Shown in pieces: positions 17,424-64,000 of a stretch of 64,000 bases of DNA. The first letter of the stretch is position 1, and each line of letters opens with the position of its first letter. The stretch lies in sequence record ON113170.1; one strand, given 5' to 3'. The stretch is from Enterococcus phage vB_OCPT_CCS1. Below the pieces are notes generated by a model. That model was not told the origin of the DNA, made no database searches, and worked only from the letters and a program-made list of their open reading frames with translations. The position numbers and the translations under genes are program-made.

Positions 17424-17553
17424 AATGTCCTATTTTAAATTTTTGACCTCCTTATATATTTAATATTATATATTTAACTATTTATCTAAGTTATATGTAT
17501 TTATATATTATATATTTATATATAAGGGAACCAAAAATGGAAAATAGGACATT
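17422..17553. promoter_or_regulatory. AT-rich simple-sequence block flanked by ~14-bp inverted repeats; candidate origin/unwinding element or regulatory region
   Basis: AAAATGTCCTATTTT (17422-17436) and AAAATAGGACATT (17541-17553) are reverse complements. The interior is TATATATTTAATATTATATATTTA... Confidence 0.35.
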
Positions 17554-19407: not shown

Positions 19408-21051
19408 ATGACAAGTCAATGCTTAACAAATGAAATTCGAGCACAATATAGTCTAGGCAACGGAATTGTTGAGTTCGTTGAAAGATTAGCTAAAAAAGCA
19501 CAGCAATGGGGAGAAACATTTGCTACCCCTATACGCAAGACAACTGTAGCTGAGGAGATGGGACGTGACACACGTACTGTTACTCGGTATCTAGGACAAC
19601 TTGAAGAGTTGGGTCTTGTTAGTACAGAAGCAAAACGTGGTAGAAATGGAGGAACTGTTGTCGTGTTTAATACTGATATTCTAAATTTTGAACCAACTGA
19701 TAACCCGATTACTTCGGAGACAAAGGAAGCTAAGGAGATTCGTGAACGTGTCTTCCCAAAAGCACCAACTCCGAAGCCTAAAAGACGGTACCGTACAAAA
19801 TTAGAGATTGCAGAAGCTCGCATTTTAGAACAAAAGCAAAAAAGCTTTGAAGAACGCTTAAACGACTTACTTGAACGTACCTTCTTGGATAGAGACTTTT
19901 TTGATAATTTCGAAGAACCTCGTTTGTATTTCCAAGGGTATTTAATTGCACAAATGTACAATGCTTATGCAGTTATTTTCCCAAAGAATAGACATGAGTT
20001 CTTCAAAGATATTGATGTTAAAAAATCAGAGGAAGGTTTACGTAGTATGAACAAAGCTAAATCATACAACGTGTTACCTGCTCGTTTTGTAGGAACCCCA
20101 CAGTACAACAAATTTGTTGAAGTAGCTAGGTACTGTAATGAGAATAATATTAACCCATTATCTTATCTAACTGTTCAATTTGAGCGTGCAGAGCATTTAG
20201 CTGACATTGGTAAAGCTCGTGTAGGGGCTATTCCTTATGTAAACACTCTACTGTGTGAAGAAGCTCGTAAAGCTTATTCTGACAATGTAATGTTTTATCG
20301 TAAAATGCGTAATAGCTTTAACTTATTCGGTATGAGTAGTAGTTCTGTTCCGTATAAAGGGGCTAAATATGAGATTATTGTAGCTCTACGTACTGCGTAC
20401 GAATTAGATAGAACAACGAGAGATACTTTCAACTACTTATTAGACGAATTAGCTAGTGGTGCACAACAATCAGTGAAACAAGCAACCTTGTTAGGTTATT
20501 ACAATACTACTTTAAATGCTCTTTCAGAAAGTGATTTAGCAGATGAAGACCAACAATTAATCAGAGATTTCTTAAAAGAGCAAGTATTGCTATATTCACG
20601 TAAGAACTCATTGAGCAGTACTATCTATGCTTTAGCTTTCCCATTACAAATTAGCGCTGTTAATTCAGTTGCGACCCTAAAAGGTCTTGACAAAGAGATG
20701 TATTACACTTATATTGGTAATATGTACAAGGTTACAGATGTTAACGATGATGAATACGATAGTTTCACGGAACGTGGTCGAACAATTGACTTCTCTTACA
20801 ATGCTAATGATACTTTCTTTAGTACAATGCGATTAATTGCAGATTGTAAGGGTCTAGGAGTTCCGGCAGGTAAGCTAGGAAGCGCCTTACAAAAATTCGG
20901 TGAAGAAAAAGTTCCGTTAGATACTTTTGGTATGTTAGATATTGAACGTATCTATGATAAATTGATTGATTCGGATGAGTTAGCCAAAGACCGATATATT
21001 CAAGACAAAGATGCAACCATGATGAGTATGGTTGTGACTGACGAGGGGTAG
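19408..21051 (+). CDS. replication initiation (Rep)-like protein
   Basis: N-terminal winged-HTH-like segment TVTRYLGQLEELGLVSTEAKRGRNGGTVV. Conserved position between the two helicase genes. Confidence 0.4.
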   Translation: MTSQCLTNEIRAQYSLGNGIVEFVERLAKKAQQWGETFATPIRKTTVAEEMGRDTRTVTRYLGQLEELGLVSTEAKRGRNGGTVVVFNTDILNFEPTDNPITSETKEAKEIRERVFPKAPTPKPKRRYRTKLEIAEARILEQKQKSFEERLNDLLERTFLDRDFFDNFEEPRLYFQGYLIAQMYNAYAVIFPKNRHEFFKDIDVKKSEEGLRSMNKAKSYNVLPARFVGTPQYNKFVEVARYCNENNINPLSYLTVQFERAEHLADIGKARVGAIPYVNTLLCEEARKAYSDNVMFYRKMRNSFNLFGMSSSSVPYKGAKYEIIVALRTAYELDRTTRDTFNYLLDELASGAQQSVKQATLLGYYNTTLNALSESDLADEDQQLIRDFLKEQVLLYSRKNSLSSTIYALAFPLQISAVNSVATLKGLDKEMYYTYIGNMYKVTDVNDDEYDSFTERGRTIDFSYNANDTFFSTMRLIADCKGLGVPAGKLGSALQKFGEEKVPLDTFGMLDIERIYDKLIDSDELAKDRYIQDKDATMMSMVVTDEG

Positions 21052-41519: not shown

Positions 41520-42716
41520 ATGGAACTAATAAATTTAAGTGCTAGAACACTACCCGAATTACACGGGAAGTTTCTTGTTGTAGAGACTCTATCAGACGGA
41601 TACACAGGAACCGTAAACGGTCATTATAACTATGAAGTTGTTACTAAAGGTGAGGACTATGAAATCTATCCCACACTTTGGAACAGCGAAAAAGCGCAGT
41701 TTGTAAAAGCTGACGAAATGGTTGTGTATACAAACGGAGATACTGTATTCTATGTAACAAGAACAACAAAAGACCCTTATAATCATGCTGTTATCAGTGA
41801 GTTAATCGTTGAAGAAGGAATGGACAAGGCTAAGCGTACCCTTCAAGCTTTCCGACTATTCGCAGACGATTTATTCTCTATTGGAAACTATAACGTGTTC
41901 TTAACACACCAAATTGGTGTAGTAGACAGCCCAAGTAACGTAAAAGTTGAATCAGTTTCCTTAGACAAAGAATCCGGAACATTATATGTAGGTGACACAG
42001 TAGAATTAACAGCAACTGTACTACCAGAAAATGCCACAGTCAAAGACGTAACATTCTCTGTTGTTCCAGAAGGAATCGCTACTGTAACTGCTACTGGTGC
42101 CAAGGCAACAGTTACAGCTAAAGTAAAAGGCTCAACTAACGTTATCGTAACTACATTAGACGGAGACAAAACAGCTCAATATGCTTTAACAGTGAAGGAA
42201 CACGTTTTAGTTTCTGGTATTACTTTAAACAAAGAAGCTACTTCAATTGTTAAAGGTGCTACAGAAACACTTGTTGCAACAGTAACTCCACCAGATGCAG
42301 AAAACAAAGCTGTAACATGGGCATCTGATAAACCTGCCGTAGCTATAGTAGACCAAAACGGGGAGGTCACAGCAGTAGATGGCGGTACAGCTAATATTAC
42401 TGCAACAACAGTTGACGGTAATAAAGTAGCAACTTGTGTTGTGACAGTAACTGTTCCTGTAACAAGCGTTACTTTAAACAAAGAAGCTACTTCAATTGTT
42501 AAAGGCGCTACAGAAACACTTATTGCAACAGTTGCCCCTACTAACGCAACAAATAAAAAAGTAACATGGAAATCTGATAACATGGGCATTGTTACTGTAG
42601 CCCAAAGCGGAGAGGTCACAGCAGTAGATGGCGGTACAGCTAACGTAACAGCAGAAACAGAAGATGGTAAGAGAGTAGCTACTTGTGCGGTAACAGTTAA
42701 CCCTGCACAAGCATAA
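41520..42716 (+). CDS. virion-associated protein: N-terminal domain paralogous to the 42743 gene, fused to three Ig-like (Big_2) repeats
   Basis: N-terminus FLVVETLSDGYTGTV...DPYNHAVISE...FLTHQIG. Three Big_2 units, the last two nearly identical at the DNA level (LNKEATSIVKGATETL[VI]ATV.P). Confidence 0.5.
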   Translation: MELINLSARTLPELHGKFLVVETLSDGYTGTVNGHYNYEVVTKGEDYEIYPTLWNSEKAQFVKADEMVVYTNGDTVFYVTRTTKDPYNHAVISELIVEEGMDKAKRTLQAFRLFADDLFSIGNYNVFLTHQIGVVDSPSNVKVESVSLDKESGTLYVGDTVELTATVLPENATVKDVTFSVVPEGIATVTATGAKATVTAKVKGSTNVIVTTLDGDKTAQYALTVKEHVLVSGITLNKEATSIVKGATETLVATVTPPDAENKAVTWASDKPAVAIVDQNGEVTAVDGGTANITATTVDGNKVATCVVTVTVPVTSVTLNKEATSIVKGATETLIATVAPTNATNKKVTWKSDNMGIVTVAQSGEVTAVDGGTANVTAETEDGKRVATCAVTVNPAQA

Positions 42717-56423: not shown

Positions 56424-56494
56424 TTGACAGTACTAGTACAAGATGTTAACATGTTTATGTACAAGAAAACAAATCAAGGAGAGATGTACAGATG
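56424..56494 (+). repeat. 71-bp promoter/operator/RBS cassette, copy 2
   Basis: Exact duplicate of 56056-56126. Confidence 0.7.
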
Positions 56495-58894
56495 AAACCA
56501 TTCGAAGACATTCTTGATGTGTTGAACAAAGCACGTCAGGACAAAGACAAGGTAACACTTACTTTTATTGAAGGACTAGATAATATTGCTAAACTTCAAA
56601 TTGAGGATTCTTCTGCTACAGCAGGAATCACTCGTTACGTAAAGTTTTATAACAATGACATCCGTAAGTTCCATTACGTTGACCAAGCTGATTTTGAAGA
56701 AATGTATGCAGGCTTAGAAATGAAAACAGGTAAACCAAAAGAAGAAACAATTGAGTTTCCTTCTGAGGAAGTGGGTATTATCAGTGCTTTAAAAATCTTG
56801 CAACAAAGTGGTGTCTTTAGTGATGAAGATGGAATGCTAACTCTAGGAATTAACACGTCTACATTGAAAGATGCTCACTATATCTTACAGTATATTGAGC
56901 CTGCAATTGACCGTTACTTTGAATCTTTGAATAAGGATATTGAAGAATTAGACCGTGTAACGATTGACCAATCAGATGAACTTAAACAAAAAATCTGGGA
57001 AAGCTTTGTATTTAGCAAAGATAATCTAAGCAAAATGCTAGATGACTTTGAATTGGCAACTCTAGACACGTTCCCAAATGTACCGTCTAATTTAATTGTT
57101 GAGACTTGTTCAGAAGTGAAGAAAACTCTTGAAGGGTTATTGATTAAAGATGCGGAAGAAAATCCTATTGAGTGTCATGATTACCTTGTTGAAGGTTTCG
57201 TTGGTGCTATTATCCGTATTGAACAATTTATTATTTCTGTTGCAACATTACCTTACCGTAGAACAGAACTAGAACTTAGAGAATCAAGAGAAGCTTATAT
57301 CAAAGAGCTTGCTTCAAATCTATTTATCTTTGCAGAAGCTATTGCTCAGGCGTATACTAGACTTGTATGCTCTATCTTAATGGAAAATTCTATTGATATG
57401 CACAATGCTTCTGAATATATCCAAGTTATGGAAACAAAAGCGGTTCACTGGGTAAAAGAAGAAGCATTAGGTGGAACTATGTTAGCTAACAATGAGGAAG
57501 ACCTCGTTGAGTTATCCCAAGCTTTAAACTCTATGACACTAGATGACGTACGTGAAACCCGAGAAGACCCCGAGAAGGCTGAGTTTAAAGAAGCTTTGGA
57601 AGAATTGCTTAATGAGTTGGCAGATGTTTTTTCAGAAGACGAGGACGACGAAGAAGTTGACGAAACAGAAGACGAAGATGAGGAAGAAATAAAACAAGCC
57701 TTATTAGAATCACTAGAAGACCTGTTACGTTCAATTCAAGCCCCTACTATGGAAGAAGGGGAAGAAGACAATGAGGCACTTTTCGAAGCACCTATGGTAG
57801 ACATGGATGACCTCCTTGGATATTCACTATCGAAGGAACCTACAGAAAAAGAAGAACCTGTAGAACTTTCAGATGATGCAAAAGCAGAGTTTGAGGAATA
57901 CTTTGCAGATGAAATCTACGAGCTTCAAGAACTCCGTAAAAAGGTAGAAGATGCTTTAACCATGTACGATAAGGTTACCGGTGAACTAGCATTAAACGAG
58001 TTAGATTCAGTAGCTATGGGAAATATTCAATTAGCAATTTCAACGTTACGAAGAGCGCTAGATAACACAGAGCTTGACTACACTAAGAAAGGCTTACTTG
58101 AATCGTTAGCTATTCTTAAAGGAGACAAACATACTTTTTATGTTGAATCCATTAGTGTTTTAGGAGATGCGTACGAGCTTTACAAAACACTTGGTGTAGG
58201 TATTACGGACTATGCACATGCAGTTGTTGAGGGCATTGAATGTTCTGTTGCGAATAAACGGGGTACAAACCCAGAAACACAATTTGTGTTGAGTACAGTT
58301 ACCCGTTTAATCGAACGTGAAATCGAAGCCTTAGAGGATGCTGAAGAATACTCAGATTTATTAGCCTTTTCTCTAGCCCTTTCACTGACTGCTGTGTTAG
58401 CAGATTGGAATAATTCATTTGGTGTAGTAAATGTTGATGTAAATGACTTTATCCCTAAGAAACGACCTTCTGTTGTTGTCGAAGGAGACGAAGAGGATGA
58501 AGAAGAAACAACAGACCTAGCTAAAGAGTTAAAAGACTTAATTCGTGGAACAGCACTAGATGCTGATACACAATCAGCTAGTGATATAGACGAAGAAGCC
58601 TTGATTGCTGACTACAAGAACGGTGTCTCACAGAGAGAACTCACAAAATGTTATAATATAAGTACAGGGAAGTTCTACTCAATTCTACGTAGACACGGTA
58701 TCGCAGTAGATAGCTCTAAAGTAGCTAAGAAAGTTGCGCATGTAGAAGAGAATCCAGAAGTACTTGAACGAGTTCTTAAAGATTATATTGAAGGTAAAAC
58801 ACTAGCATATATTTACTCAAATTACAATCTATATAAGAACGGCTTGTTCTATTTGCTAGACAAATACCAAGTTCCACGTAGAAACAAACGTTAA
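56492..58894 (+). CDS. 800-aa highly acidic protein with two C-terminal HTH-like motifs
   Basis: Asp/Glu tracts (DEDDEEVDETEDEDEEE; EGDEEDEEETTD). C-terminal LIADYKNGVSQRELTKCYNISTGKFYSILRRHGI and a second HTH-like repeat. Confidence 0.5.
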   Translation: MKPFEDILDVLNKARQDKDKVTLTFIEGLDNIAKLQIEDSSATAGITRYVKFYNNDIRKFHYVDQADFEEMYAGLEMKTGKPKEETIEFPSEEVGIISALKILQQSGVFSDEDGMLTLGINTSTLKDAHYILQYIEPAIDRYFESLNKDIEELDRVTIDQSDELKQKIWESFVFSKDNLSKMLDDFELATLDTFPNVPSNLIVETCSEVKKTLEGLLIKDAEENPIECHDYLVEGFVGAIIRIEQFIISVATLPYRRTELELRESREAYIKELASNLFIFAEAIAQAYTRLVCSILMENSIDMHNASEYIQVMETKAVHWVKEEALGGTMLANNEEDLVELSQALNSMTLDDVRETREDPEKAEFKEALEELLNELADVFSEDEDDEEVDETEDEDEEEIKQALLESLEDLLRSIQAPTMEEGEEDNEALFEAPMVDMDDLLGYSLSKEPTEKEEPVELSDDAKAEFEEYFADEIYELQELRKKVEDALTMYDKVTGELALNELDSVAMGNIQLAISTLRRALDNTELDYTKKGLLESLAILKGDKHTFYVESISVLGDAYELYKTLGVGITDYAHAVVEGIECSVANKRGTNPETQFVLSTVTRLIEREIEALEDAEEYSDLLAFSLALSLTAVLADWNNSFGVVNVDVNDFIPKKRPSVVVEGDEEDEEETTDLAKELKDLIRGTALDADTQSASDIDEEALIADYKNGVSQRELTKCYNISTGKFYSILRRHGIAVDSSKVAKKVAHVEENPEVLERVLKDYIEGKTLAYIYSNYNLYKNGLFYLLDKYQVPRRNKR

Positions 58895-58952: not shown

Positions 58953-59405
58953 TTGTTGGAAGAGACGGTTTATAATTTTATACAAGGTTTAACTAACACA
59001 CAGTTAGTTATACTAGAAGATATATTTGCTTTACTAGGACTAATCTTTATACTTATAGGAATACATCTTTTGGTAGAAGATACAGTTGAGTGGGTGAAAC
59101 TAGTTAAGAATCCAAAAGTTTCCACGTTTGCAACAATACACATGTATTTTACTTTTTATCTACCGATGTTCATTTTCTTTTTGGTAGATGGTAGTACGGT
59201 TACTACTTTTGTTGTTTCATTACTGATGTTTGCTGTTGTGTATACATGGATTGTCTGGTTTCGGGTGGGTAGATACACAGAAAATTGGTCAGTAGTACGT
59301 CCATTTGTTACCTACATTAAAGCACAAGACCATGTGTGTACGTTAGTTATTGGTTCAATACTTTTAAGAACAGTACTATTTTTTATAAAGATTAGGATAG
59401 GTTAA
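58953..59405 (+). CDS. polytopic membrane protein (about four TM helices)
   Basis: TTG after AATAAGGAGAATATTTG. Hydrophobic spans LVILEDIFALLGLIFILIGIHLL, YFTFYLPMFIFFLV, FVVSLLMFAVVYTWIVWF. Confidence 0.5.
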   Translation: MLEETVYNFIQGLTNTQLVILEDIFALLGLIFILIGIHLLVEDTVEWVKLVKNPKVSTFATIHMYFTFYLPMFIFFLVDGSTVTTFVVSLLMFAVVYTWIVWFRVGRYTENWSVVRPFVTYIKAQDHVCTLVIGSILLRTVLFFIKIRIG

Positions 59406-59432
59406 GATAGGATAGGATGGAGGATAAGATAG
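59395..59432. repeat. TAGGATAGGA-type short array immediately upstream of a start codon
   Basis: GATTAGGATAGGTTAAGATAGGATAGGATGGAGGATAAGATAGATG. Confidence 0.55.
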
Positions 59433-59993
59433 ATGAATGAAATAATGAGTTATGTTTGGTTGGGTGTGTTTATTGCTATACCTGTAATTGGCTTTATCTA
59501 TGTATATAACTACAATAAAAAAAATCCACGTTGGTACCTTCGTAAAAGCTATTGGGCGCCACTAGTGCTAGACTTAGTTGTTTTTGGTGTTTGGGCGTTT
59601 ATAGGTATAGGTACATTGGATGTTGGACATACAGAGACAATTGTTAAAACCTTTAACATTGAGCCACTTACTGTTTATAGCTCACCAGAAAATATTTATG
59701 CAAAGATAGGTAGCACGGATAACAGTTATGTTAACTTTGCAATTACAGGTAAGGGAACTCACTCTGCACCACTTGGTAACACTAGTATCCATTACGTTGA
59801 GTACGAAGGTAGACCGAAAGTCATGGTTACTTACTACAAATTAGATTCCCCTCTCTCAGCATTTATGGGAATACAAGGGATGCTTGTAGACAGTAAAACT
59901 CGTATAGACATTCAAGTTCCTATAGGCGGAGTCGATGTTACAAATACAGGTAGCACCTTTGAAGAGCAATCAGTAAACGACTTACTCAAATAA
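59433..59993 (+). CDS. N-terminally membrane-anchored protein (186 aa)
   Basis: One or two N-terminal TM helices (VWLGVFIAIPVIGFIYV; LVLDLVVFGVWAFIGIG) followed by a soluble domain. Confidence 0.5.
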   Translation: MNEIMSYVWLGVFIAIPVIGFIYVYNYNKKNPRWYLRKSYWAPLVLDLVVFGVWAFIGIGTLDVGHTETIVKTFNIEPLTVYSSPENIYAKIGSTDNSYVNFAITGKGTHSAPLGNTSIHYVEYEGRPKVMVTYYKLDSPLSAFMGIQGMLVDSKTRIDIQVPIGGVDVTNTGSTFEEQSVNDLLK

Positions 59994-59996
59994 TTC

Positions 59997-60060
59997 CCTA
60001 AGTAGCAGGCTACAAAAATCCTCTAAGTAGCAGGTTACAAAAAAACCTAAGTAGCAGGCT
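59997..60060. repeat. three direct ~25-bp repeats, CTAAGTAGCAGGCTACAAAAA type
   Basis: Each unit contains GTAGC-N2-GCTAC inverted arms. Same family as the 62444-62615 array. Confidence 0.6.
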
Positions 60061-60092
60061 AGAGACATCTTTTATAGGTGTCTCTTTTTTTG
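60061..60092 (+). terminator. rho-independent terminator
   Basis: AGAGACATCTTTTATAGGTGTCTCT followed by TTTTTTTG. Confidence 0.7.
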
Positions 60093-60171
60093 TTGACATC
60101 CCTATACAATCATGCTACGATATACATGTAGATAAGGGAAGCCAGAATAAATAAAAAATTTGAGCTTACCT

Positions 60172-60200
60172 ATTGACATTAAACAATGCAGGCTGTACAA
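60172..60200 (+). promoter_or_regulatory. strong sigma-A-type early promoter with conserved leader
   Basis: TTGACA-17-TACAAT followed by AGACTTGTAAGATAAAA. Confidence 0.6.
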
Positions 60201-60235
60201 TAGACTTGTAAGATAAAACAAAGGAGGAAATTACA

Positions 60236-60472
60236 ATGGAAAAACAAAAACAAGTGATTACAAGAAAACAATACGAGGAAATTATGGCACGTTATGACAA
60301 GGTAGACTATGCTATCATCGCAGGGTTCATTATCTTTGGTACAGTTATCTTTGGTTTCGGGGGATTTGTCTTTATGGCTGTTGTTGGTGCGTTTACGTTC
60401 CCACGTATGAAACAAAAAAGCATTAATTTAATAGAGCAAGACTACATTGTTAGAGATGACATTCAACAGTAA
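60236..60472 (+). CDS. small membrane protein (78 aa)
   Basis: Central hydrophobic span AIIAGFIIFGTVIFGFGGFVFMAVVGAF. Confidence 0.45.
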   Translation: MEKQKQVITRKQYEEIMARYDKVDYAIIAGFIIFGTVIFGFGGFVFMAVVGAFTFPRMKQKSINLIEQDYIVRDDIQQ

Positions 60473-60533
60473 GCTTAATTGTTGACTATGGAAATTACAG
60501 GTGTTAATATAATGGTACAAGGAGGACAAAGAA

Positions 60534-60782
60534 ATGGCAGAGGCAAAGAAAAGCTATGCTGACATGACAGAGGAGGAAGCACAATATGCAATGGTATTAG
60601 GTGCTAGAATCGCTCATGCACGAGAAGGGTTAGGTATTAGTCAAGGAGAACTAGGTAAGTTAGCAGGTTTCAATCAAACAACTATCTCTTTAATTGAGAC
60701 CGGTAAACGGCTACCTAACTTAAAGACCCTTATCAGATTGAGTAAGATTCTTAAAAAAAGTTTGAAAATTACATTGGAATGA
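60534..60782 (+). CDS. XRE-family helix-turn-helix regulator (82 aa)
   Basis: LGISQGELGKLAGFNQTTISLIETGKR is a Cro/CI-type HTH. Confidence 0.55.
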   Translation: MAEAKKSYADMTEEEAQYAMVLGARIAHAREGLGISQGELGKLAGFNQTTISLIETGKRLPNLKTLIRLSKILKKSLKITLE

Positions 60783-60814
60783 GGTAGAGAAAATAAAACA
60801 GGGGGAGATTTATT

Positions 60815-60925
60815 ATGACAACGAAAGTAAAAGAAACAAAATCAAAAGTAAAGAATGGTGAACGTACACCAATAGTAGGATTCTATTTATATAATTTAAG
60901 AGTCCTGATTCTACCGTATATTTAA
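60815..60925 (+). CDS. small 36-aa ORF with strong RBS
   Basis: GGGGGAGATTTATTATG. Its end is embedded in a 9-bp-stem hairpin. Confidence 0.3.
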   Translation: MTTKVKETKSKVKNGERTPIVGFYLYNLRVLILPYI

Positions 60926-60950
60926 CAGGAATGTGCGGTAGAATTTTATT
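60908..60950 (+). terminator. stem-loop terminator
   Basis: ATTCTACCG-17 nt-CGGTAGAAT followed by TTTTATTTAT. Confidence 0.5.
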
Positions 60951-60963
60951 TATACAAACCTAT

Positions 60964-60992
60964 TGACAATAAACAATAGAAGAGTTATACTA
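60964..60992 (+). promoter_or_regulatory. sigma-A-type early promoter
   Basis: TTGACA-17-TATACT. Confidence 0.55.
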
Positions 60993-61017
60993 TGTATGAA
61001 GATAAGGAAAGGGAGAG

Positions 61018-61350
61018 ATGACAATGTTAAACTTTAACAAACATGTAACAGTAGAGGATATTATTAGAGATGGAGAATATGACGATGCAGTGGTAGAACA
61101 TATTATTGCTGAACTAGAATCGAGTGACAAGAAGAAACTAGCTTTGTTCAAACAGTGGGTCGCAGACAAGAAGGAAGACGGAGACACGGAAGCTGTTGAA
61201 CACTTTAAAGATATGACGGACAAAGAAGTATTAGTATATATGGACTTAGATGAGATTGTAGAGTACTATGAAGAAACAGGTCTTGCAGATTTTGCAAACA
61301 GCTTGGACATTGATTGGACAGGTTTGCTAGAAAGTTTTGGAGTAGAATAG
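61018..61350 (+). CDS. hypothetical acidic protein (110 aa)
   Basis: ATG after AAAGGGAGAG. Confidence 0.45.
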   Translation: MTMLNFNKHVTVEDIIRDGEYDDAVVEHIIAELESSDKKKLALFKQWVADKKEDGDTEAVEHFKDMTDKEVLVYMDLDEIVEYYEETGLADFANSLDIDWTGLLESFGVE

Positions 61351-61363
61351 GGGGTTAAGACTA

Positions 61364-61852
61364 ATGTATGATATGGTAACTAAAAAGAAAAGAAATCAAG
61401 AAATTGTACGTATGAGACAAGCAGGAAAAACGTTTAAGGATATTGCTTCTGAGTATAACATTTCTCAACAACGAGTACAACAGATATACAAACGAGAAAC
61501 CTCGTTAAATAAGATTAGACCTAAAGCGGGTAGACCAAGAAAGGACGAAATTGATGAGAAACGAACAGACATTAGTACTTTTGCAGTAACGAAGAGACAG
61601 AGAGAAAGAATAGTTCAACAAGCTGAAAAGGAAGGAAAGCCAGTTAAGGAGGTAGTTGATTCTATTATTTTTAATACAATGAGTGGGAAATACAACAGCC
61701 TTTTCCATAAAAAAGGTGGAGATAACAAACAGGTTCCTATGGTAGGGAATAAACAACTGTTAGATGCTTTACGTGCATATCTTGGTGCATATGAGGAAAC
61801 CCCATCAGAGGCGTTAAGACTAGTTATAGATAGGATATACGGGGATGAATAG
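61364..61852 (+). CDS. HTH DNA-binding protein (sigma-70 region-4-like)
   Basis: EIVRMRQAGKTFKDIASEYNISQQRVQQIYKRE. Confidence 0.5.
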   Translation: MYDMVTKKKRNQEIVRMRQAGKTFKDIASEYNISQQRVQQIYKRETSLNKIRPKAGRPRKDEIDEKRTDISTFAVTKRQRERIVQQAEKEGKPVKEVVDSIIFNTMSGKYNSLFHKKGGDNKQVPMVGNKQLLDALRAYLGAYEETPSEALRLVIDRIYGDE

Positions 61853-61990
61853 CTATTAGGATAGGATGATAGGATACACTTAGGATAAGGTAGGATAGGA
61901 TAAGGTAGGATAGGTTTAGGATAGGATACACTTAGGATAGGTTTAGGATAGGATACACTTAGGATAGGATAGGATAGGATGAAAGGGGAT
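61852..61990. repeat. ~135-bp array of TAGGATAGGA/AGGATACACTTAGGATAGG units
   Basis: GGATAGGATACACTTAGGATAGG occurs three times; also GGTTTAGGATAGGATACACTT twice. Ends 10 nt before the ATG of the next gene. Related to 59395-59432. Confidence 0.65.
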
Positions 61991-61998
61991 ATGATACA

Positions 61999-62448
61999 AT
62001 GTTAGGTACAGCAGAATATGATACACTTAGAGAGTATTTAGTAGCCGTAATTCATAACCAAATTAGTGAGGGTGAGAGAGACACACAAAGCTTAGACGTA
62101 TGGAAGGAAGAGGTTGACAAGCTGACAGTAGACAATTGGAGAGAACGTTGCATGAACCTAGCAGATTTGTTATATGTAGACACTCCCGCTTCACTGGCAG
62201 ACATTTACAAAGACTATAAAGAGGAGCTAAATGAAATACTCAGAGATTACACAGATGAGTTACGTGCAGGAGCTACGTTCAATAAGGTAGCTGATGAGCG
62301 CCTAGGGTGGATGTGGGAAGATTATGACCCATTAATACTAGAAGCACATAATCAAGGTCTAGTGGCTCGTCTAGGGCTTCTAATCGTTGCTGAACAACTT
62401 GCTACTCAATTAGAACAAGGGACGTTTACAATACCATATGATAACTAA
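61999..62448 (+). CDS. hypothetical acidic protein (149 aa)
   Basis: ATG directly downstream of the TAGGATAGGA array (GAAAGGGGATATGATACAATG). Confidence 0.45.
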   Translation: MLGTAEYDTLREYLVAVIHNQISEGERDTQSLDVWKEEVDKLTVDNWRERCMNLADLLYVDTPASLADIYKDYKEELNEILRDYTDELRAGATFNKVADERLGWMWEDYDPLILEAHNQGLVARLGLLIVAEQLATQLEQGTFTIPYDN

Positions 62449-62615
62449 GTAACAGGCTAGCCTAAGTAACGGGCTAGCTTTTTTCTTCTAAGTAGCAGGT
62501 TAGCTAAAATTCTCTAAGTAGCGGGCTACAATAAAAAACCCTAAGTAGCGGGCTACAAAAATCCTCTAAGTAGCGGGCTACAAAAATCCTCTAAGTAGCG
62601 GGCTACAAACAGCTT
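62444..62615. repeat. seven direct ~25-bp repeats, CTAAGTAGCGGGCTACAAAAATCCT type (iteron-like array)
   Basis: Units at about 62444, 62467, 62497, 62520, 62545, 62570 and 62595. The last three are essentially identical. Each contains GTAGC-GG-GCTAC. Confidence 0.7.
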
Positions 62616-62700
62616 ATAAAGTTCCGAAGCGTGGCATCCGACCGCCAGACTTGCCACCTTTGCCCGTTTGATCTGCCACCACTTAAACCCGTTTTTTCCT
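62616..62700. other. GC-rich island (about 60% GC) directly after the iteron-like array
   Basis: GTTCCGAAGCGTGGCATCCGACCGCCAGACTTGCCACCTTTGCCCGTTTGATCTGCCACCAC with a GTGGCA/TGCCAC stem and repeated GCCACC. No ORF. Confidence 0.4.
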
Positions 62701-62832
62701 TATATATAGAAGAAAAAGTTTTTCATCTTTTTTAGTGTTTTATATTGACATTAAGAAATAAGCATGGTATAGTATAGACAGTTAAAGAAAGGAGCTAACA
62801 AAAAAATAAATAAAAAAATTTAAAAAAAGTTA

Positions 62833-62861
62833 TTGACAAAAAGAAATAGACCTGATACAAT
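62833..62861 (+). promoter_or_regulatory. strong sigma-A-type early promoter with conserved leader
   Basis: TATTGACAAAAAGAAATA...TACAAT followed by AAACTTGTAAGATAAATAA. Confidence 0.6.
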
Positions 62862-62898
62862 AAACTTGTAAGATAAATAAAAGAAAGAGGGACTAAAA

Positions 62899-63174
62899 AT
62901 GGAAAAACAAATTATTGTAAACTTTTTAAAAGAGATTGAAAAAAATATTAAAATGGTAAACAGGGGTTTAAAATCTGAAAATGAGGCATACAGCGAACTT
63001 GTCGGAATGTATAACGGTATTAAGTTAGCAATGAAAACAATCAATCCCGACACGGTAAACATGGATTTGCATTATACACGTAAAACACTTGACAACTTAT
63101 TTTTAGGAACAAACGAGCAAAAAGAAAACGCCTTAAAAGCTTTGGAAAATGCTTTACTAATTACAGAAAACTAA
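62899..63174 (+). CDS. hypothetical early protein (91 aa)
   Basis: ATG after AAGAAAGAGGGACTAAAA. Confidence 0.45.
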   Translation: MEKQIIVNFLKEIEKNIKMVNRGLKSENEAYSELVGMYNGIKLAMKTINPDTVNMDLHYTRKTLDNLFLGTNEQKENALKALENALLITEN

Positions 63175-63184
63175 CATATAAAAC

Positions 63185-63203
63185 GGCGGGACACGTTCCC
63201 GCC
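63185..63203. terminator. GC-rich stem-loop, probable terminator
   Basis: GGCGGGACACGTTCCCGCC. A-tract upstream but a weak T-tract downstream. Confidence 0.35.
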
Positions 63204-63239
63204 TTACATAAAAAAATAAAAAATTTTTATGTTTATCTA

Positions 63240-63268
63240 TTGACAAAAAGAAATATAGATGATAATAT
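63240..63268 (+). promoter_or_regulatory. sigma-A-type early promoter
   Basis: TTGACA-17-TAATAT. Confidence 0.5.
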
Positions 63269-63296
63269 AAAGACATAGAAAGAGAGAGGGGAAAAC

Positions 63297-63425
63297 ATGA
63301 AAAGAGTAAAAGCCTTTTTAATCGCAAGAAAGGAAAATAAAGAAGTAAAAGAGATTTTACAGACAAGAAGCAAGGCAATAAACGAGCTTAAAAATTTAAA
63401 TAAAAAACTTATACAAAACTATTGA
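63297..63425 (+). CDS. small 42-aa basic ORF
   Basis: ATG after AGAGAGAGGGGAAAAC. Not in ORF track. Its end overlaps the -35 of the next promoter. Confidence 0.3.
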   Translation: MKRVKAFLIARKENKEVKEILQTRSKAINELKNLNKKLIQNY

Positions 63426-63450
63426 CAAAAAGAAATAAACGATATATAAT
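63422..63450 (+). promoter_or_regulatory. strong sigma-A-type early promoter
   Basis: TTGACA-17-TATAAT followed by AAATATGTAAGGTAAAACAAGGAGG. Confidence 0.6.
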
Positions 63451-63485
63451 AAATATGTAAGGTAAAACAAGGAGGAAAAAGAAAC

Positions 63486-63674
63486 ATGCAAAAGAAACTA
63501 TACAAGAAAAGAGATTTTTATAAAAAGCTGGCTTCATTCGCTGTTATGTTTTTACTTGGTTCAGTTGTTACGGCGGTATTTTCGTTTACAGTGTCACTTA
63601 TTATCGGCTTGACTTTGTTCGTTTTTGCTTTTATGATTTTCGATGATTTAGATTATACAGTAAAAAATAAGTAA
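63486..63674 (+). CDS. small membrane protein (62 aa)
   Basis: Two hydrophobic spans (LASFAVMFLLGSVVTAVFSFTV; LIIGLTLFVFAFMIF). Confidence 0.45.
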   Translation: MQKKLYKKRDFYKKLASFAVMFLLGSVVTAVFSFTVSLIIGLTLFVFAFMIFDDLDYTVKNK

Positions 63675-63694
63675 AAAAAATTAATCAAATCTAT

Positions 63695-63723
63695 TGACAT
63701 TAAACAATAAACAATATATAATA
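63695..63723 (+). promoter_or_regulatory. strong sigma-A-type early promoter with conserved leader
   Basis: TTGACA-17-TATAAT followed by AAACATGTAAGATAAATAAG. Confidence 0.6.
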
Positions 63724-63758
63724 AACATGTAAGATAAATAAGAAAGAGAGTGATAAAA

Positions 63759-64000
63759 ATGGAAAACACAAAAAAATATACATTAGAGGACTTGAAACAA
63801 CTAGCAAAAGAAAGCGGGTTTGAAATTGAGGAGGTAAAACCAAAATTACACGATATTAATCGTTATTATTGGAGCGGTAGCATTTATGGCGGTTCAGACT
63901 TCATTTTTATTGACCACGATTTAAAAATTATTGTAACAGGTAACACACGAGCAACAAAAAGCGACATGTATACAAGAAATAACACGGAATGCAAACGAAA
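63759..64000 (+). CDS. early protein, 3' end truncated by window edge
   Basis: ATG after AAGAAAGAGAGTGATAAAA. Reading frame open to the end of the window. Confidence 0.4.
   Translation, partial: MENTKKYTLEDLKQLAKESGFEIEEVKPKLHDINRYYWSGSIYGGSDFIFIDHDLKIIVTGNTRATKSDMYTRNNTECKR

What the first reader, a model, noticed from the sequence alone, without database searches (positions are those of the whole stretch)
62444..62700. Seven-unit 25-bp iteron-like array followed by an unusual GC-rich island
Seven direct repeats of CTAAGTAGCGGGCTACAAAAATCCT, with the last three essentially identical, terminate in a ~70-bp segment of about 60% GC (GTGGCATCCGACCGCCAGACTTGCCACCTTTGCCCGTTTGATCTGCCACCAC). This is strikingly atypical for this ~38% GC genome, and contains a GTGGCA/TGCCAC stem and GCCACC direct repeats but no ORF. 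The two iteron arrays (here and at 59997) and the two TAGGATAGGA arrays alternate in the same order (TAGGATAGGA array, gene, iteron array). This may mark a replication origin, a partition or packaging site, or the boundary of a terminal redundancy. If this region lies inside terminal repeats, the array may be a concatemer-resolution signal.
Basis: seen in the sequence. Interest (0 to 1): 0.65.

Follow-up and report, generated by a model that had tools for sequence, protein, structure and literature searches.

The report
Conserved repeat array heading phage early genes
The repeat array and GC-rich patch are real and form a conserved, apparently non-transcribed DNA signal at the head of the early-gene block of a large Enterococcus phage; its core motif matches the one that marks genome ends in Staphylococcus phage K, yet here it lies about 5 kb from the mapped ends, and its job (most likely a protein-binding platform such as a replication origin) is untested.

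Summary
Seven same-strand copies of CTAAGTAGCrGGCTA lie at 62445-62615 and three more at 59998-60061. They are followed by the only 70-bp stretch of at least 57% GC in the window.

The window is an Enterococcus Schiekvirus (Herelleviridae), not a Bacillus phage. In relatives with mapped ends (iF6, 163, UTI-EfS3) the terminal repeat starts about 5 kb downstream, beyond the window end. In the complete iF6 genome the motif occurs only in these two arrays. The array is therefore not the terminal-repeat boundary.

No RNA family, tRNA or conserved fold was found, and the GTGGCA/TGCCAC stem is broken in relatives.

The module (TAGGA array, iterons, GC island, AT palindrome, strong early promoters) recurs in Kochikohdavirus and in Listeria phages A511/P100. 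There the region is a published "transcriptional dead zone" proposed as an origin. The core matches 10 of 12 bases of the published LTR-boundary repeat of phage K.

Best reading: a multi-site binding platform for a conserved phage protein at the head of the early-gene block, most likely a replication origin (about 0.35). Early-promoter control is a close rival (about 0.3). Function is unproven.

The parts
59393..59432 (+). TAGGA pentamer array 1 (about 8 degenerate units). It overlaps the stop of ORF 58953-59405 and runs into the ribosome-binding site of the next gene.
   Evidence: TRF; pattern search with 9 matches against 0.2 expected; sequence.
59433..59993 (+). 186-aa membrane-type protein gene enclosed by TAGGA array 1 and iteron array 1. 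It is unrelated to the 149-aa gene.
   Evidence: ORF list; PHROG 33649, unknown function; no similarity to p149.
59998..60061 (+). Iteron array 1: three CTAAGTAGCAGGyTA units at 24-25 bp spacing, starting directly after the stop codon.
   Evidence: Relatives carry 2-3 copies. The array is carried, with the adjacent promoters and the XRE gene, on an E. faecium plasmid.
60061..60085 (+). Intrinsic-terminator-like hairpin overlapping the last unit of array 1. Its T-run runs into the -35 of the early-type promoter at 60093.
60093..60201 (+). Two tandem sigma-A-type promoters (60093-60121 and 60173-60201), 30-95 bp downstream of array 1.
   Evidence: 10/12 and 11/12 matches to consensus.
60534..60782 (+). 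82-aa XRE/Cro-type HTH regulator gene lying between the two arrays. Candidate binder, but not shared with the Listeria phages that carry the same iteron.
   Evidence: Pfam HTH_3, 1.6e-12. tblastn hits are confined to Enterococcus phage records (68 named Enterococcus plus one record named only 'phage'); identity is 48% in Kochikohdavirus, where the gene lies about 10 kb from the array.
61364..61852 (+). 162-aa protein with an N-terminal HTH (HTH_28, HTH_23, sigma-70 region 4-like), ending 5 bp before TAGGA array 2. Present in only part of the Schiekvirus records.
   Evidence: Pfam; tblastn distribution.
61857..61980 (+). TAGGA pentamer array 2 (about 24 degenerate units), with strong G-over-C skew.
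   Evidence: The homologous arrays are (TAGGA)14 in A511 and (TAGGA)27 plus (TAGGA)33 in CKA15 (PMC12282133).
61999..62448 (+). 149-aa gene of unknown function enclosed by TAGGA array 2 and iteron array 2. No such gene is present in Listeria phages A511 and P100.
   Evidence: PHROG 17103; L019 and A511 have no ORF in the equivalent space.
62445..62615 (+). Iteron array 2: seven units, core CTAAGTArCrGGyTA, spaced 17/26/26/27/25/25 bp. Units 4-7 contain the imperfect palindrome GTAGC-GG-GCTAC.
   Evidence: Copy number is 5-8 in Schiekvirus and 4-17 in Kochikohdavirus.
62454..62480 (+). Terminator-like hairpin built from iteron units 1 and 2, followed by a T-run. It ends the upstream transcription unit, so units 3-7 and the island lie in a non-transcribed spacer (inferred).
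   Evidence: An annotated terminator sits at the same place in phage 113.
62616..62652 (.). Linker with an invariant TATAAA, followed by the variable 5' half of the GC island. Three sequence variants occur among 15 Schiekvirus copies, and the GTGGCA arm is lost in at least 7 of them.
   Evidence: Alignment.
62653..62691 (.). Conserved 3' half of the GC island: two GCCACC copies 22 bp apart, with CACCTTTGCCCGTT and AAACCC nearly invariant.
62692..62718 (.). T-run plus AT-rich imperfect palindrome (TTTTTTCCTTATATATAGAAGAAAAAG). It is a perfect 28-bp palindrome in Kochikohdavirus KEN16 and is recognisable in A511/P100 and in a Twort-like phage.
62745..62861 (+). Two tandem strong sigma-A-type promoters (62745-62773 and 62833-62861) in a 15-26% GC stretch. 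This is the start of the chain of small early genes.
62899..63174 (+). First small early gene (91 aa) downstream of the module, conserved at 49% amino-acid identity in Kochikohdavirus.
19408..21051 (+). 547-aa winged-HTH 'Rep-like' protein encoded between a UvsW-like and a DnaB-like helicase. Candidate iteron-binding initiator (inference only).
   Evidence: Pfam HTH_36, below cut-off. PHROG 1098 at 5e-159, plus weak hits to replication-initiation families at 4e-4 to 9e-4. The N-domain is found across Herelleviridae and is 48% identical in Listeria P100.
58532..58891 (+). C-terminal tandem-HTH domain of the 800-aa protein encoded three genes upstream of array 1. Second candidate binder (inference only).
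   Evidence: Homologous to the C-terminus of A511 gp167, which lies in the same position relative to the repeat region. Present in 571 phage records, almost all Herelleviridae of Staphylococcus, Bacillus, Enterococcus and Listeria.

Best explanation
What it is. The array at 62445-62615 is a row of same-orientation binding sites for a sequence-specific DNA-binding protein conserved in Herelleviridae. The core is CTAAGTAGCrGGCTA, a strong half-site TAAGTAGC followed by a weaker inverted GCTAC. Together with the GC-rich island, the AT-rich palindrome and, further upstream, the TAGGA pentamer array, it forms a cis-acting DNA module. The module sits between a terminator and the first strong promoters of the right-terminal early ('host-takeover') gene block. 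It works as DNA, not RNA, and it is not the physical genome end.

Most likely job. I commit to a replication origin at about 0.35. In this model an initiator oligomerises on the iterons; the candidate is the winged-HTH Rep-like protein encoded at 19408-21051 next to the DnaB-like helicase. The GC island acts as a rigid spacer or second binding site (two GCCACC copies 22 bp apart). Opening then occurs in the adjacent 15-26% GC stretch that holds the AT palindrome and the strong early promoters, whose firing would help unwinding.

Shown versus inferred. Shown: the repeats, their conservation, their uniqueness in a related genome, their position relative to mapped ends, and the absence of any RNA signal. 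Taken from the literature: the homologous Listeria phage region is transcriptionally silent. Inferred: protein binding, the identity of the binder, and origin function.
For: Anatomy. There are 10 same-strand copies against 1 expected. The island is the only stretch of at least 57% GC in the window. A 15-26% GC segment follows it. The array lies after a terminator and before the promoters.

Uniqueness. In the complete 156.6-kb iF6 genome the motif occurs only in the two arrays, on one strand only.

Selection. The core is kept in Schiekvirus, Kochikohdavirus and Listeria Pecentumvirus, although the neighbouring proteins are undetectably or only 49-51% similar. Copy number floats from 4 to 17. 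The order iterons, GC-rich island, TTTCYT..TATATA palindrome, promoters is the same in all of them, and also in a Twort-like staphylococcal phage, although the island sequence differs.

DNA level. In Listeria phage CKA15 the homologous 1.2 kb is a 'transcriptional dead zone' without coding sequence, and its authors suggest an origin (PMC12282133).

A candidate initiator exists. It is a wHTH protein with weak matches to O-like and replication-initiation PHROGs, it lies between the UvsW-like and DnaB-like helicases, and it is annotated 'Rep protein' in K-like phages.

From my own knowledge (not tested here): direct-repeat arrays combined with palindromic or promoter-overlapping single copies mirror the iteron/operator duality of iteron-plasmid Rep proteins.
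Against: There are no replication data for any of these phages.

Cumulative GC skew follows gene orientation only and shows no inflection at the array.

The AT-rich segment is fully accounted for by promoter UP-elements.

Spacing varies from 17 to 31 bp, with no fixed helical phasing.

The matches of the Rep-like protein to initiator families are weak and below Pfam cut-offs, and no solved relative was found.

A second origin-like structure exists at 17424-17553, directly upstream of the replication genes. For phage K a different site has been proposed as the origin (PMC11598898).

Motif copies near or inside promoters in staphylococcal phages fit a transcriptional role equally well.
Confidence: 0.35

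Rival explanations
1. Early-transcription control or boundary element. The iterons are operators for a phage-encoded (or virion-delivered) regulator. That protein coats the spacer upstream of the first early promoters. It would shut early promoters off at the early-to-middle switch, or insulate the early block from read-through from the co-oriented upstream genes.
For: Both arrays sit just upstream of strong sigma-A-type promoters: 30-95 bp for array 1 and 140 bp for array 2. In a Twort-like staphylococcal phage one copy lies inside a promoter spacer (TTGATT-TTACTAAGTAGCCATGA-TATAAT). In phage K a perfect palindrome TAAGTAGCTACTTA lies about 65 bp upstream of the first LTR promoter. Two HTH regulator genes lie between the arrays. 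An E. faecium plasmid has kept array 1, the promoters and the XRE gene as one block. Genes just downstream of the homologous Listeria region are the earliest expressed (PMC12282133).
Against: Six to seventeen tandem sites 140 bp from the nearest promoter is unusual for an operator. The many other near-identical early promoters further downstream (62.8-64 kb, and in iF6 up to the DTR) carry no copy. The nearby regulators are not shared with the Listeria phages that have the same motif.
Confidence: 0.3
2. Terminal-repeat boundary or terminase recognition signal. The array would direct end formation or packaging, either at a distance or as a relic of an ancestral, longer terminal repeat.
For: The core matches 10 of 12 bases of TAAGTACCTGGG, the published repeat separating LTR from unique DNA in K-like phages (PMC6022877 and PMC4111496). 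In phage K, 2.6 tandem 35-bp units carrying it end exactly at the annotated LTR start. The distance from the array to the right physical end is 7.2 kb in iF6, about 10.3 kb in Riverwalk and 10.5 kb in A511, similar to the 8.5-kb LTR of K.
Against: Mapped or annotated DTR starts lie 5.1 kb (iF6), about 6.8 kb (Riverwalk, by homology) and 7.4 kb (A511) downstream. Those boundaries share a different context, CCCC|AG.ATTTT, and carry no copy of the motif. There is no inverted partner anywhere in iF6. Database records that start inside the array are assembly breaks at a perfect tandem repeat.
Confidence: 0.1
3. Gate for stepwise genome delivery. The repeat region is a pause or stop signal. It would let the right-terminal early block enter and be expressed before the rest of the genome, by analogy with the first-step-transfer stop signal of phage T5 (analogy from my own knowledge).
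For: In four genera the motif array sits at the inner edge of a 7-10.5 kb terminal block of early genes. The region is dense in several repeat classes and is not transcribed in CKA15. There, a small basic virion protein is encoded immediately upstream (PMC12282133).
Against: There is no evidence that these phages deliver DNA in two steps, or which end enters first. The early genes point towards the end, so transcription could not pull in the rest of the genome.
Confidence: 0.08
4. Neutral variable-number tandem repeat or recombination scar with no function; the GC island would be a decayed gene remnant.
For: Copy number varies freely from 4 to 17. The 5' half of the island is variable. The island sequence is unrelated in three lineages.
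Against: The 15-nt core and the order of elements are conserved across subfamilies and host genera, while flanking genes have turned over. The 3' half of the island is nearly invariant in 15 Schiekvirus copies.
Confidence: 0.05
5. The GC island or the repeats encode a structured small RNA.
For: A GTGGCA/TGCCAC hairpin can be drawn in this phage, and one relative keeps it through a G-U pair.
Against: No Rfam match at E up to 1 in 59000-64000. No tRNA or tmRNA. Fold energies are not better than shuffles, with z from -0.85 to +0.64 for the Schiekvirus window and Kochikohdavirus islands on both strands; a variant island copy (L003) gave z -1.85, carried by the AT-palindrome hairpin. The consensus fold of 14 distinct sequences is -0.26 kcal/mol on the + strand, with no covariation on either strand. 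The stem is broken in at least 7 of 15 relatives. The homologous Listeria region is not transcribed.
Confidence: 0.02

Closest known systems
LTR-boundary repeats of K-like (Kayvirus, 'Twort-like') staphylococcal phages: TAAGTACCTGGG / CCCAGGTACTTA
   Same: The core sequence is shared: cTAAGTAcCtGG in K against CTAAGTAGCGGG here, 10 of 12 bases. In phage K the motif also occurs as a short tandem array (35 bp x 2.6) immediately upstream of a non-coding leader and the first early promoter. Same virus family.
   Different: In K-like phages the motif sits exactly at the LTR/unique-DNA junction and has an inverted partner at the other LTR edge (PMC6022877, PMC4111496). Here the array is 5 kb from the mapped terminal repeat. 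It has no inverted partner, carries more copies (7 plus 3), and the real boundary has a different sequence.
The 1.2-kb 'transcriptional dead zone' / proposed origin of Listeria phage CKA15 (P100/A511 group), PMC12282133
   Same: The modules are homologous. A TAGGA pentamer array starts at a stop codon, followed by the same CTAAGTAGCaGGcTA repeats, a GC-rich patch, an AT-rich stretch with strong promoters, and then the earliest genes. Both lie 5-7 kb upstream of the terminal repeat.
   Different: The paper reports the TAGGA repeats and the AT-rich stretch; the passages I read do not mention the CTAAGTAGC repeats. In the Listeria phages the whole region is gene-free and the iterons are partly dispersed. 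In this phage a 149-aa gene sits between the TAGGA array and the iterons, a second partial module lies 2.4 kb upstream, and the GC island has an unrelated, C-rich rather than G-rich, sequence.
Iteron-type origins (phage lambda ori with O protein; iteron plasmids such as RK2, P1, pSC101). Comparison from general knowledge.
   Same: Several same-orientation repeats of about 20-25 bp lie beside an AT-rich region. A second, smaller array lies nearby. A winged-helix initiator candidate is encoded next to the replicative helicase.
   Different: No initiator gene adjoins the array. Spacing is irregular (17-31 bp). No DnaA boxes were noted. Copy number is very plastic. There is no functional evidence.
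Putative origin of phage K: two 28-bp direct repeats between gp190 and gp191 (PMC11598898)
   Same: It is also a repeat-bearing, poorly transcribed intergenic region in a Herelleviridae genome, and it too was proposed as an origin on sequence grounds only.
   Different: The sequence, repeat number and genome position are all different. It is not associated with the early block.

Membership tests
K-like phage LTR-boundary repeat | Sequence TAAGTACCTGGG (or its complement) | tested here: inconclusive
   10 of 12 bases are identical (TAAGTAGCGGG(C)). The 7-mer TAAGTA plus C is shared by all lineages examined. This is similar but not identical, so homology is plausible but not proven.
K-like phage LTR-boundary repeat | Lies at the junction between the terminal repeat and unique DNA | tested here: not met
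   The iF6 DTR (mapped by RAGE) starts 5,061 bp downstream of the last iteron. The boundary positions in 163 and UTI-EfS3 agree. The boundary sequence is absent from the window.
K-like phage LTR-boundary repeat | Inverted partner copy at the other edge of the terminal repeat | tested here: not met
   There is no minus-strand copy of CTAAGTA[GC]C anywhere in the 156.6-kb iF6 genome.
Iteron-type replication origin | Three or more direct repeats in one orientation | tested here: met
   7 plus 3 copies, all on the + strand. The same holds in all relatives.
Iteron-type replication origin | Adjacent AT-rich unwinding region | tested here: inconclusive
   The segment 62680-62900 is 15-26% GC and contains an AT palindrome. 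However, the same segment is a pair of promoters with A-rich upstream elements.
Iteron-type replication origin | Cognate initiator protein that binds the repeats | not testable with these tools
   A candidate wHTH Rep-like protein is encoded at 19408-21051, with only weak matches to initiator families. Binding cannot be tested here.
Iteron-type replication origin | Replication starts there | not testable with these tools
   GC skew is uninformative because it tracks gene orientation. Marker-frequency or 2D-gel data are needed.
Pecentumvirus non-coding 'dead zone' module (CKA15/A511/P100) | TAGGA pentamer array, then CTAAGTAGC repeats, then a GC-rich patch, then AT-rich early promoters, in that order | tested here: met
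   Window; A511; P100.
Pecentumvirus non-coding 'dead zone' module (CKA15/A511/P100) | Gene-free and transcriptionally silent | tested here: not met
   Gene-free is not met: a conserved 149-aa gene (61999-62448) lies between the TAGGA array and the iterons. Transcriptional silence cannot be tested here. Only 62481-62744 lies between a predicted terminator and the next promoter.
Structured non-coding RNA | Match to a known family, or a conserved fold with covariation | tested here: not met
Repressor operator array (XRE/Cro type) | Sites overlap the regulated promoters and co-occur with the regulator gene | tested here: not met
   In the window the sites lie 30-140 bp upstream of the promoters, not over them. 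The XRE and 162-aa HTH genes are absent from the Listeria phages that carry the same motif.
pac / terminase recognition site | Lies at or next to the packaging cut | tested here: not met
   It lies 5 kb from the mapped left DTR boundary and 7.2 kb from the right physical end in iF6.

The most novel reading that the evidence does not exclude
The CTAAGTA(G/C)C arrays are an ancient, family-wide 'early-block boundary' element of Herelleviridae. A conserved, possibly virion-delivered protein binds them, and their role is separable from end formation. One possible role is a gate or pause site that lets the 7-10 kb right-terminal host-takeover block be delivered and expressed before the rest of the genome, like T5 first-step transfer. 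On this reading, the motif marks the LTR edges in K-like phages only because there the whole early block is duplicated.
Probability: 0.1. Interest if true: 0.8.

Novelty: new variant of a known kind. Interest (0 to 1): 0.5.

Why it matters
Herelleviridae include the main therapeutic phages for Staphylococcus, Enterococcus and Listeria. Their origins of replication, end-formation signals and early-to-middle switch are still essentially unmapped.

This analysis links three observations that were previously separate. The first is the K-like 'LTR boundary repeat'. The second is the Listeria phage 'dead zone' proposed as an origin. The third is the unannotated (in one record mis-annotated as a CDS) repeat arrays of Enterococcus phages. 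All three appear to be one conserved cis-element.

The analysis also shows that the element can be uncoupled from the genome end. That yields a concrete bait of about 170 bp for identifying the binding protein, and a defined target for deletion by phage engineering.

There are practical consequences too. The array breaks short-read assemblies, which produces false genome 'starts' and unresolved copy numbers in deposited records. In addition, an E. faecium plasmid carries a copy of array 1 together with the phage regulator gene, which may be a natural decoy or immunity determinant relevant to phage therapy.

Tried and rejected
RNA reading. Rfam at E up to 1 gave nothing. ARAGORN gave nothing. 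Single-sequence folds of the window and Kochikohdavirus islands on both strands were no better than shuffles, and a variant island copy scored z -1.85 only through the AT-palindrome hairpin. The consensus fold with a covariation term showed nothing on either strand.

Terminus reading from database record starts. KEN11 and KEN16 begin and end inside the array, which is an assembler break at a perfect 150-bp tandem repeat and not a physical end. The apparent 3.2-kb coincidence in Listeria phage LP-083-2 disappeared once A511, with its annotated repeat, was read.

A 9-nt match (CCCCAGATT) between the EF24C island and the iF6 DTR cut site. It is not conserved in Riverwalk (CCCTAGATT), and the Kochikohdavirus boundary homologue lies 6.8 kb away. 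I treat it as coincidence.

GC skew as an origin locator. It only tracks gene orientation.

Neighbouring HTH proteins as the general binder. The 162-aa protein is found in only some Schiekvirus records. The XRE protein is found only in Enterococcus phage records. The EF24C neighbours show no similarity to the window proteins.

Similarity to plasmid origins. The only plasmid hit is a captured phage fragment, not a plasmid iteron.

Host-genome motif. The two-copy pattern is absent from 185,579 species genomes, apart from that same phage-derived fragment.

Laboratory deletions in EfV12-phi1 (PMC6365445). These remove early genes 3-4 kb downstream and are not array-mediated.

AddAB Chi-site idea (own knowledge: the B. 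subtilis Chi site is AGCGG, which is present in GTAGCGGG units). I dropped it because most copies in Kochikohdavirus and Listeria phages read GCAGG.

PDB and NCBIfam searches for the candidate binders gave nothing usable.
Full report
OBSERVATION. The region was read directly. A search for CTAAGTAGCGGGCTA with up to 3 mismatches gives 10 hits in 64 kb, all on the + strand. Seven lie at 62445-62605 and three at 59998-60061. One hit is expected by chance, and none of 100 shuffles reaches 10. TRF reports a 25-bp period.

Unit spacing in array 2 is 17, 26, 26, 27, 25 and 25 bp. Units 5 and 6 are identical. The first two units are variants that together form a terminator-like hairpin (62454-62480) for the upstream gene. 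Each later unit contains the imperfect palindrome GTAGC-GG-GCTAC.

The GC island is real. The stretch 62621-62690 is 58.6% GC in a 36.9% GC window, and it is the only place where a 70-bp window reaches 57%. The two enclosed genes are unrelated.

IDENTITY AND GENOME ENDS. The window is 94-96% identical to Enterococcus phages vB_Edu_21C1, 163, phiSHEF16 and iF6 (Herelleviridae, Brockvirinae, Schiekvirus). It is not a Bacillus phage.

The iF6 genome ends were mapped by restriction analysis and RAGE, giving two 2,108-bp direct terminal repeats (PMC10054541). I assembled the whole iF6 record. The repeats at its two ends are identical. The last iteron ends at 149,424. The right repeat starts at 154,485, which is 5,061 bp downstream.

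Phage 163 has a PhageTerm repeat at 104,991-107,095, while the window segment 59901-63300 aligns to 96,850-100,828 of that record. The UTI-EfS3 record starts at exactly the iF6 boundary and annotates it 'Terminal Redundancy'. Porthos has a 2,552-bp repeat. By extrapolation the boundary lies about 3.5-3.8 kb beyond the end of the window, and its sequence is not in the window.

The iF6 boundaries carry no copy of the iteron motif. In the whole iF6 genome CTAAGTA[GC]C occurs only in the two arrays, on one strand (shuffles average 2). The array is therefore neither the terminal-repeat boundary nor inside the repeat.

Some database records start in or next to the array. For KEN11 and KEN16 I showed that the record both starts and ends within a perfect tandem array of at least 150 bp. 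This is an assembler break, not a physical end.

COMPARATIVE ANATOMY. In 15 Schiekvirus copies the array has 5-8 units. The iteron cores, an invariant TATAAA, the 3' half of the island, the T-run/AT palindrome and the promoters are nearly invariant. The conserved island half reads CACCTTTGCCCGTT...GCCACCA...AAACCC, with two GCCACC copies 22 bp apart. The 5' half of the island exists in three variants. The GTGGCA arm of the proposed stem is lost in at least 7 of the 15 copies.

In Kochikohdavirus (EF24C, EFLK1, KEN16, 156, Riverwalk) the same order is found: TAGGA array, about 148-aa gene, terminator, iterons (CTAAGTAGCAGGTTGC, 4-17 copies), a GC-rich island of unrelated sequence, an AT palindrome (a perfect 28-mer in KEN16), and strong promoters. 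The upstream protein is not detectably similar to the one in the window, and the first downstream proteins are only 49-51% identical. In phage 156 the 17-copy array is annotated as a CDS.

BEYOND ENTEROCOCCUS. A pattern scan of IMG/VR recovered Listeria phage P100. In P100 and A511 a perfect (TAGGA)n array starts at the stop codon of gp171. About 1 kb without any plausible ORF follows. It holds six CTAAGTAGCaGGcTA copies (three of them tandem), a G-rich island, an AT-rich stretch and strong promoters. The annotated A511 terminal redundancy starts at 134,495, which is 7.4 kb downstream.

For the P100-like phage CKA15, RNA-seq and ONT-cappable-seq showed that this region is a 1.2-kb 'transcriptional dead zone' with (TAGGA)27 and (TAGGA)33 and a 185-bp, 80% AT segment. 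The authors suggest an origin. The genes just downstream are the earliest expressed. The passages I read mention the TAGGA repeats and the AT-rich segment, not the CTAAGTAGC repeats (PMC12282133).

In phage K a 35-bp x 2.6 tandem repeat containing CTAAGTACC ends exactly at the annotated right LTR start. The literature states that K-like LTRs are separated from unique DNA by the inverted 12-mers TAAGTACCTGGG and CCCAGGTACTTA (PMC6022877 and PMC4111496). The window's core, TAAGTAGCGGG, matches 10 of those 12 positions.

A looser scan found further staphylococcal lineages. Phage MCE-2014 has 4 copies of CTAAGTAGCTC. A Twort-like phage has four iterons followed by a GC-richer patch, TTTCTACTATATAAAG and then promoters, plus one copy inside a promoter spacer. 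Phage K also has the palindrome TAAGTAGCTACTTA about 65 bp upstream of its first LTR promoter.

No paper in the searched library mentions CTAAGTAGC in a phage context. The two-copy pattern is absent from bacterial genomes except for a captured phage fragment.

A POSITIONAL REGULARITY. The distance from the array to the right physical end is 7.2 kb in iF6. It is about 10.3 kb in Riverwalk, where the boundary is inferred by homology and the record end is assumed to be the repeat end. It is 10.5 kb in A511. In phage K the array abuts an 8.5-kb LTR. In every case everything between the array and the end is a chain of small genes, each with its own consensus promoter. The array therefore marks the inner edge of the terminal early-gene block. 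Only in K-like phages is that edge also the repeat boundary.

The real boundaries in iF6 and A511 share a different context: GAACCCC|AGATTTTC in iF6 and GCGCCCC|AGCATTTTT in A511.

RNA TESTS. There is no Rfam match at E up to 1 and no tRNA or tmRNA. Folds of the island on both strands in two genera are no better than shuffles, with z from -0.85 to +0.64; a variant Schiekvirus copy gave z -1.85, carried by the AT-palindrome hairpin. The consensus fold of 14 distinct Schiekvirus sequences is -0.26 kcal/mol on the + strand, and the covariation term is unfavourable on both strands.

CANDIDATE BINDERS. The 162-aa HTH protein that ends next to TAGGA array 2 occurs in only part of the Schiekvirus records. 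The 82-aa XRE protein occurs only in Enterococcus phage records and is distant from the array in Kochikohdavirus. No A511 neighbour matches the window, with one exception: the C-terminus of gp167 matches the C-terminal tandem HTH of the 800-aa protein at 56492-58894. That domain is present across the family.

The 547-aa protein at 19408-21051 lies between UvsW-like and DnaB-like helicases. It has an N-terminal winged HTH with weak matches to O-like and replication-initiation PHROGs, and it is also family-wide. Its N-domain is 48% identical in P100, and it is labelled 'Rep protein' in K-like records. Neither candidate can be singled out computationally.

INTERPRETATION. The following points are well supported, at about 0.8. 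The element acts as DNA. It is under selection. It is a multi-copy recognition platform. It belongs to a larger conserved non-coding module. It is not the genome end in this phage.

Its actual job is inferred. I rank a replication origin first (about 0.35), for four reasons. The anatomy is iteron-like. The homologous Listeria region is silent. An initiator-like protein exists. Direct arrays and palindromic copies occur together, as with iteron-plasmid Rep proteins (own knowledge).

Early-promoter control or insulation is a close second (about 0.3), because copies lie next to or inside promoters and a plasmid has retained array 1 together with a regulator gene. Long-range or relic terminal-repeat function (about 0.1), a delivery gate (about 0.08), neutral repeats (about 0.05) and RNA (about 0.02) follow.

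There are counterpoints to the origin reading. GC skew is uninformative. Another origin-like structure lies upstream of the replication genes: a 58-bp nearly pure AT core between 36-nt inverted repeats at 17424-17553. A different site has been proposed as the origin in phage K.

NOVELTY. The K-like boundary repeat and the Listeria dead zone are published. The following appear to be new: the CTAAGTAGC arrays of Brockvirinae and Pecentumvirus, their similarity to the K-like boundary motif, their uncoupling from the mapped ends, and the position-conserved but sequence-variable GC island. I classify the finding as a new variant of a known kind.

Noticed in passing
L035 4553-5860 (E. faecium plasmid pCBA710401, NZ_CP025687, record about 131.9-133.2 kb); L026 (E. 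lactis CCM 8412 contig49); corresponds to window 59513-60871: A 185-kb conjugative E. faecium plasmid, and a small E. lactis contig, carry 1.3 kb that is 96% identical to phage iF6. The fragment holds the 3' part of the 186-aa gene, iteron array 1 (2 units), the terminator, both early promoters, the 78-aa membrane protein gene and the XRE regulator gene. It lies next to an IS256. It could be a natural decoy or immunity module against these lytic phages.
   Followed up: partly
window 17424-17553: A 36-nt inverted repeat (83% complementary) flanks a 58-bp almost pure AT core. A consensus promoter follows directly, and the structure lies immediately upstream of the UvsW-like / Rep-like / DnaB-like replication gene cluster. 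It is an alternative origin candidate.
   Followed up: partly
window 62700-64000 (continuing in relatives up to the terminal repeat): A chain of very small genes (42-91 aa), each behind a near-identical promoter cassette of about 100 bp (A-rich upstream element, TTGACA, 17 bp, TATAAT). In EfV12-phi1 two such genes (EFV12PHI1_123 and _126, 3-4 kb downstream of array 2) were lost in every laboratory passage line (PMC6365445). This is consistent with recombination between the repeated cassettes.
   Followed up: partly
L029 1596-2010 (phage 156, LR031359); L008/L012/L011/L013 (KEN11, KEN16): Record artefacts caused by the array. In phage 156 the 17-copy array is annotated as a protein-coding gene (PHI156_116). 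The KEN11 and KEN16 records start and end inside the array, so their true copy number is unresolved.
   Followed up: yes
iF6 genome 154,485 and 2,108 (L002 11486; L014 2108); A511 134,495 (L036 4496): Mapped terminal-repeat boundaries share the cut context CCYC|AG (iF6 left CCCC|AGATTTT, iF6 right CCTC|AGGCTT, A511 left CCCC|AGCATTTT). Both ends of the iF6 repeat carry YTATCAGGGCRC about 20-35 bp inside. This is a candidate end-formation signal, distinct from the iterons.
   Followed up: partly
window 61857-61980 and 59393-59432: The TAGGA arrays read as (UAG-GA)n and lie directly in front of ribosome-binding sites. The repeat has a strong G-over-C skew. It resembles arrays of GGA or UAG triplet motifs bound by RNA-binding regulators, and it could form two-tetrad G-quadruplexes (own knowledge, not tested). 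In Listeria phages the arrays reach 60 units.
   Followed up: no
window 62745-62832: The first promoter after the island is followed by a Shine-Dalgarno-like AAAGGAG but no start codon before the second promoter. This could be a short leader or a decayed gene.
   Followed up: no
window 42220-42687: A 249-bp tandem duplication (1.9 copies, 81% identity), apparently inside a coding region. It was reported by TRF only.
   Followed up: no
window 58532-58891 (C-terminus of the 800-aa ORF 56492-58894): The C-terminal tandem HTH domain is conserved in 571 phage records, almost all of Staphylococcus, Bacillus, Enterococcus and Listeria Herelleviridae. The long acidic N-terminal part is not. The domain is syntenic with the repeat region in both Enterococcus and Listeria phages.
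   Followed up: partly
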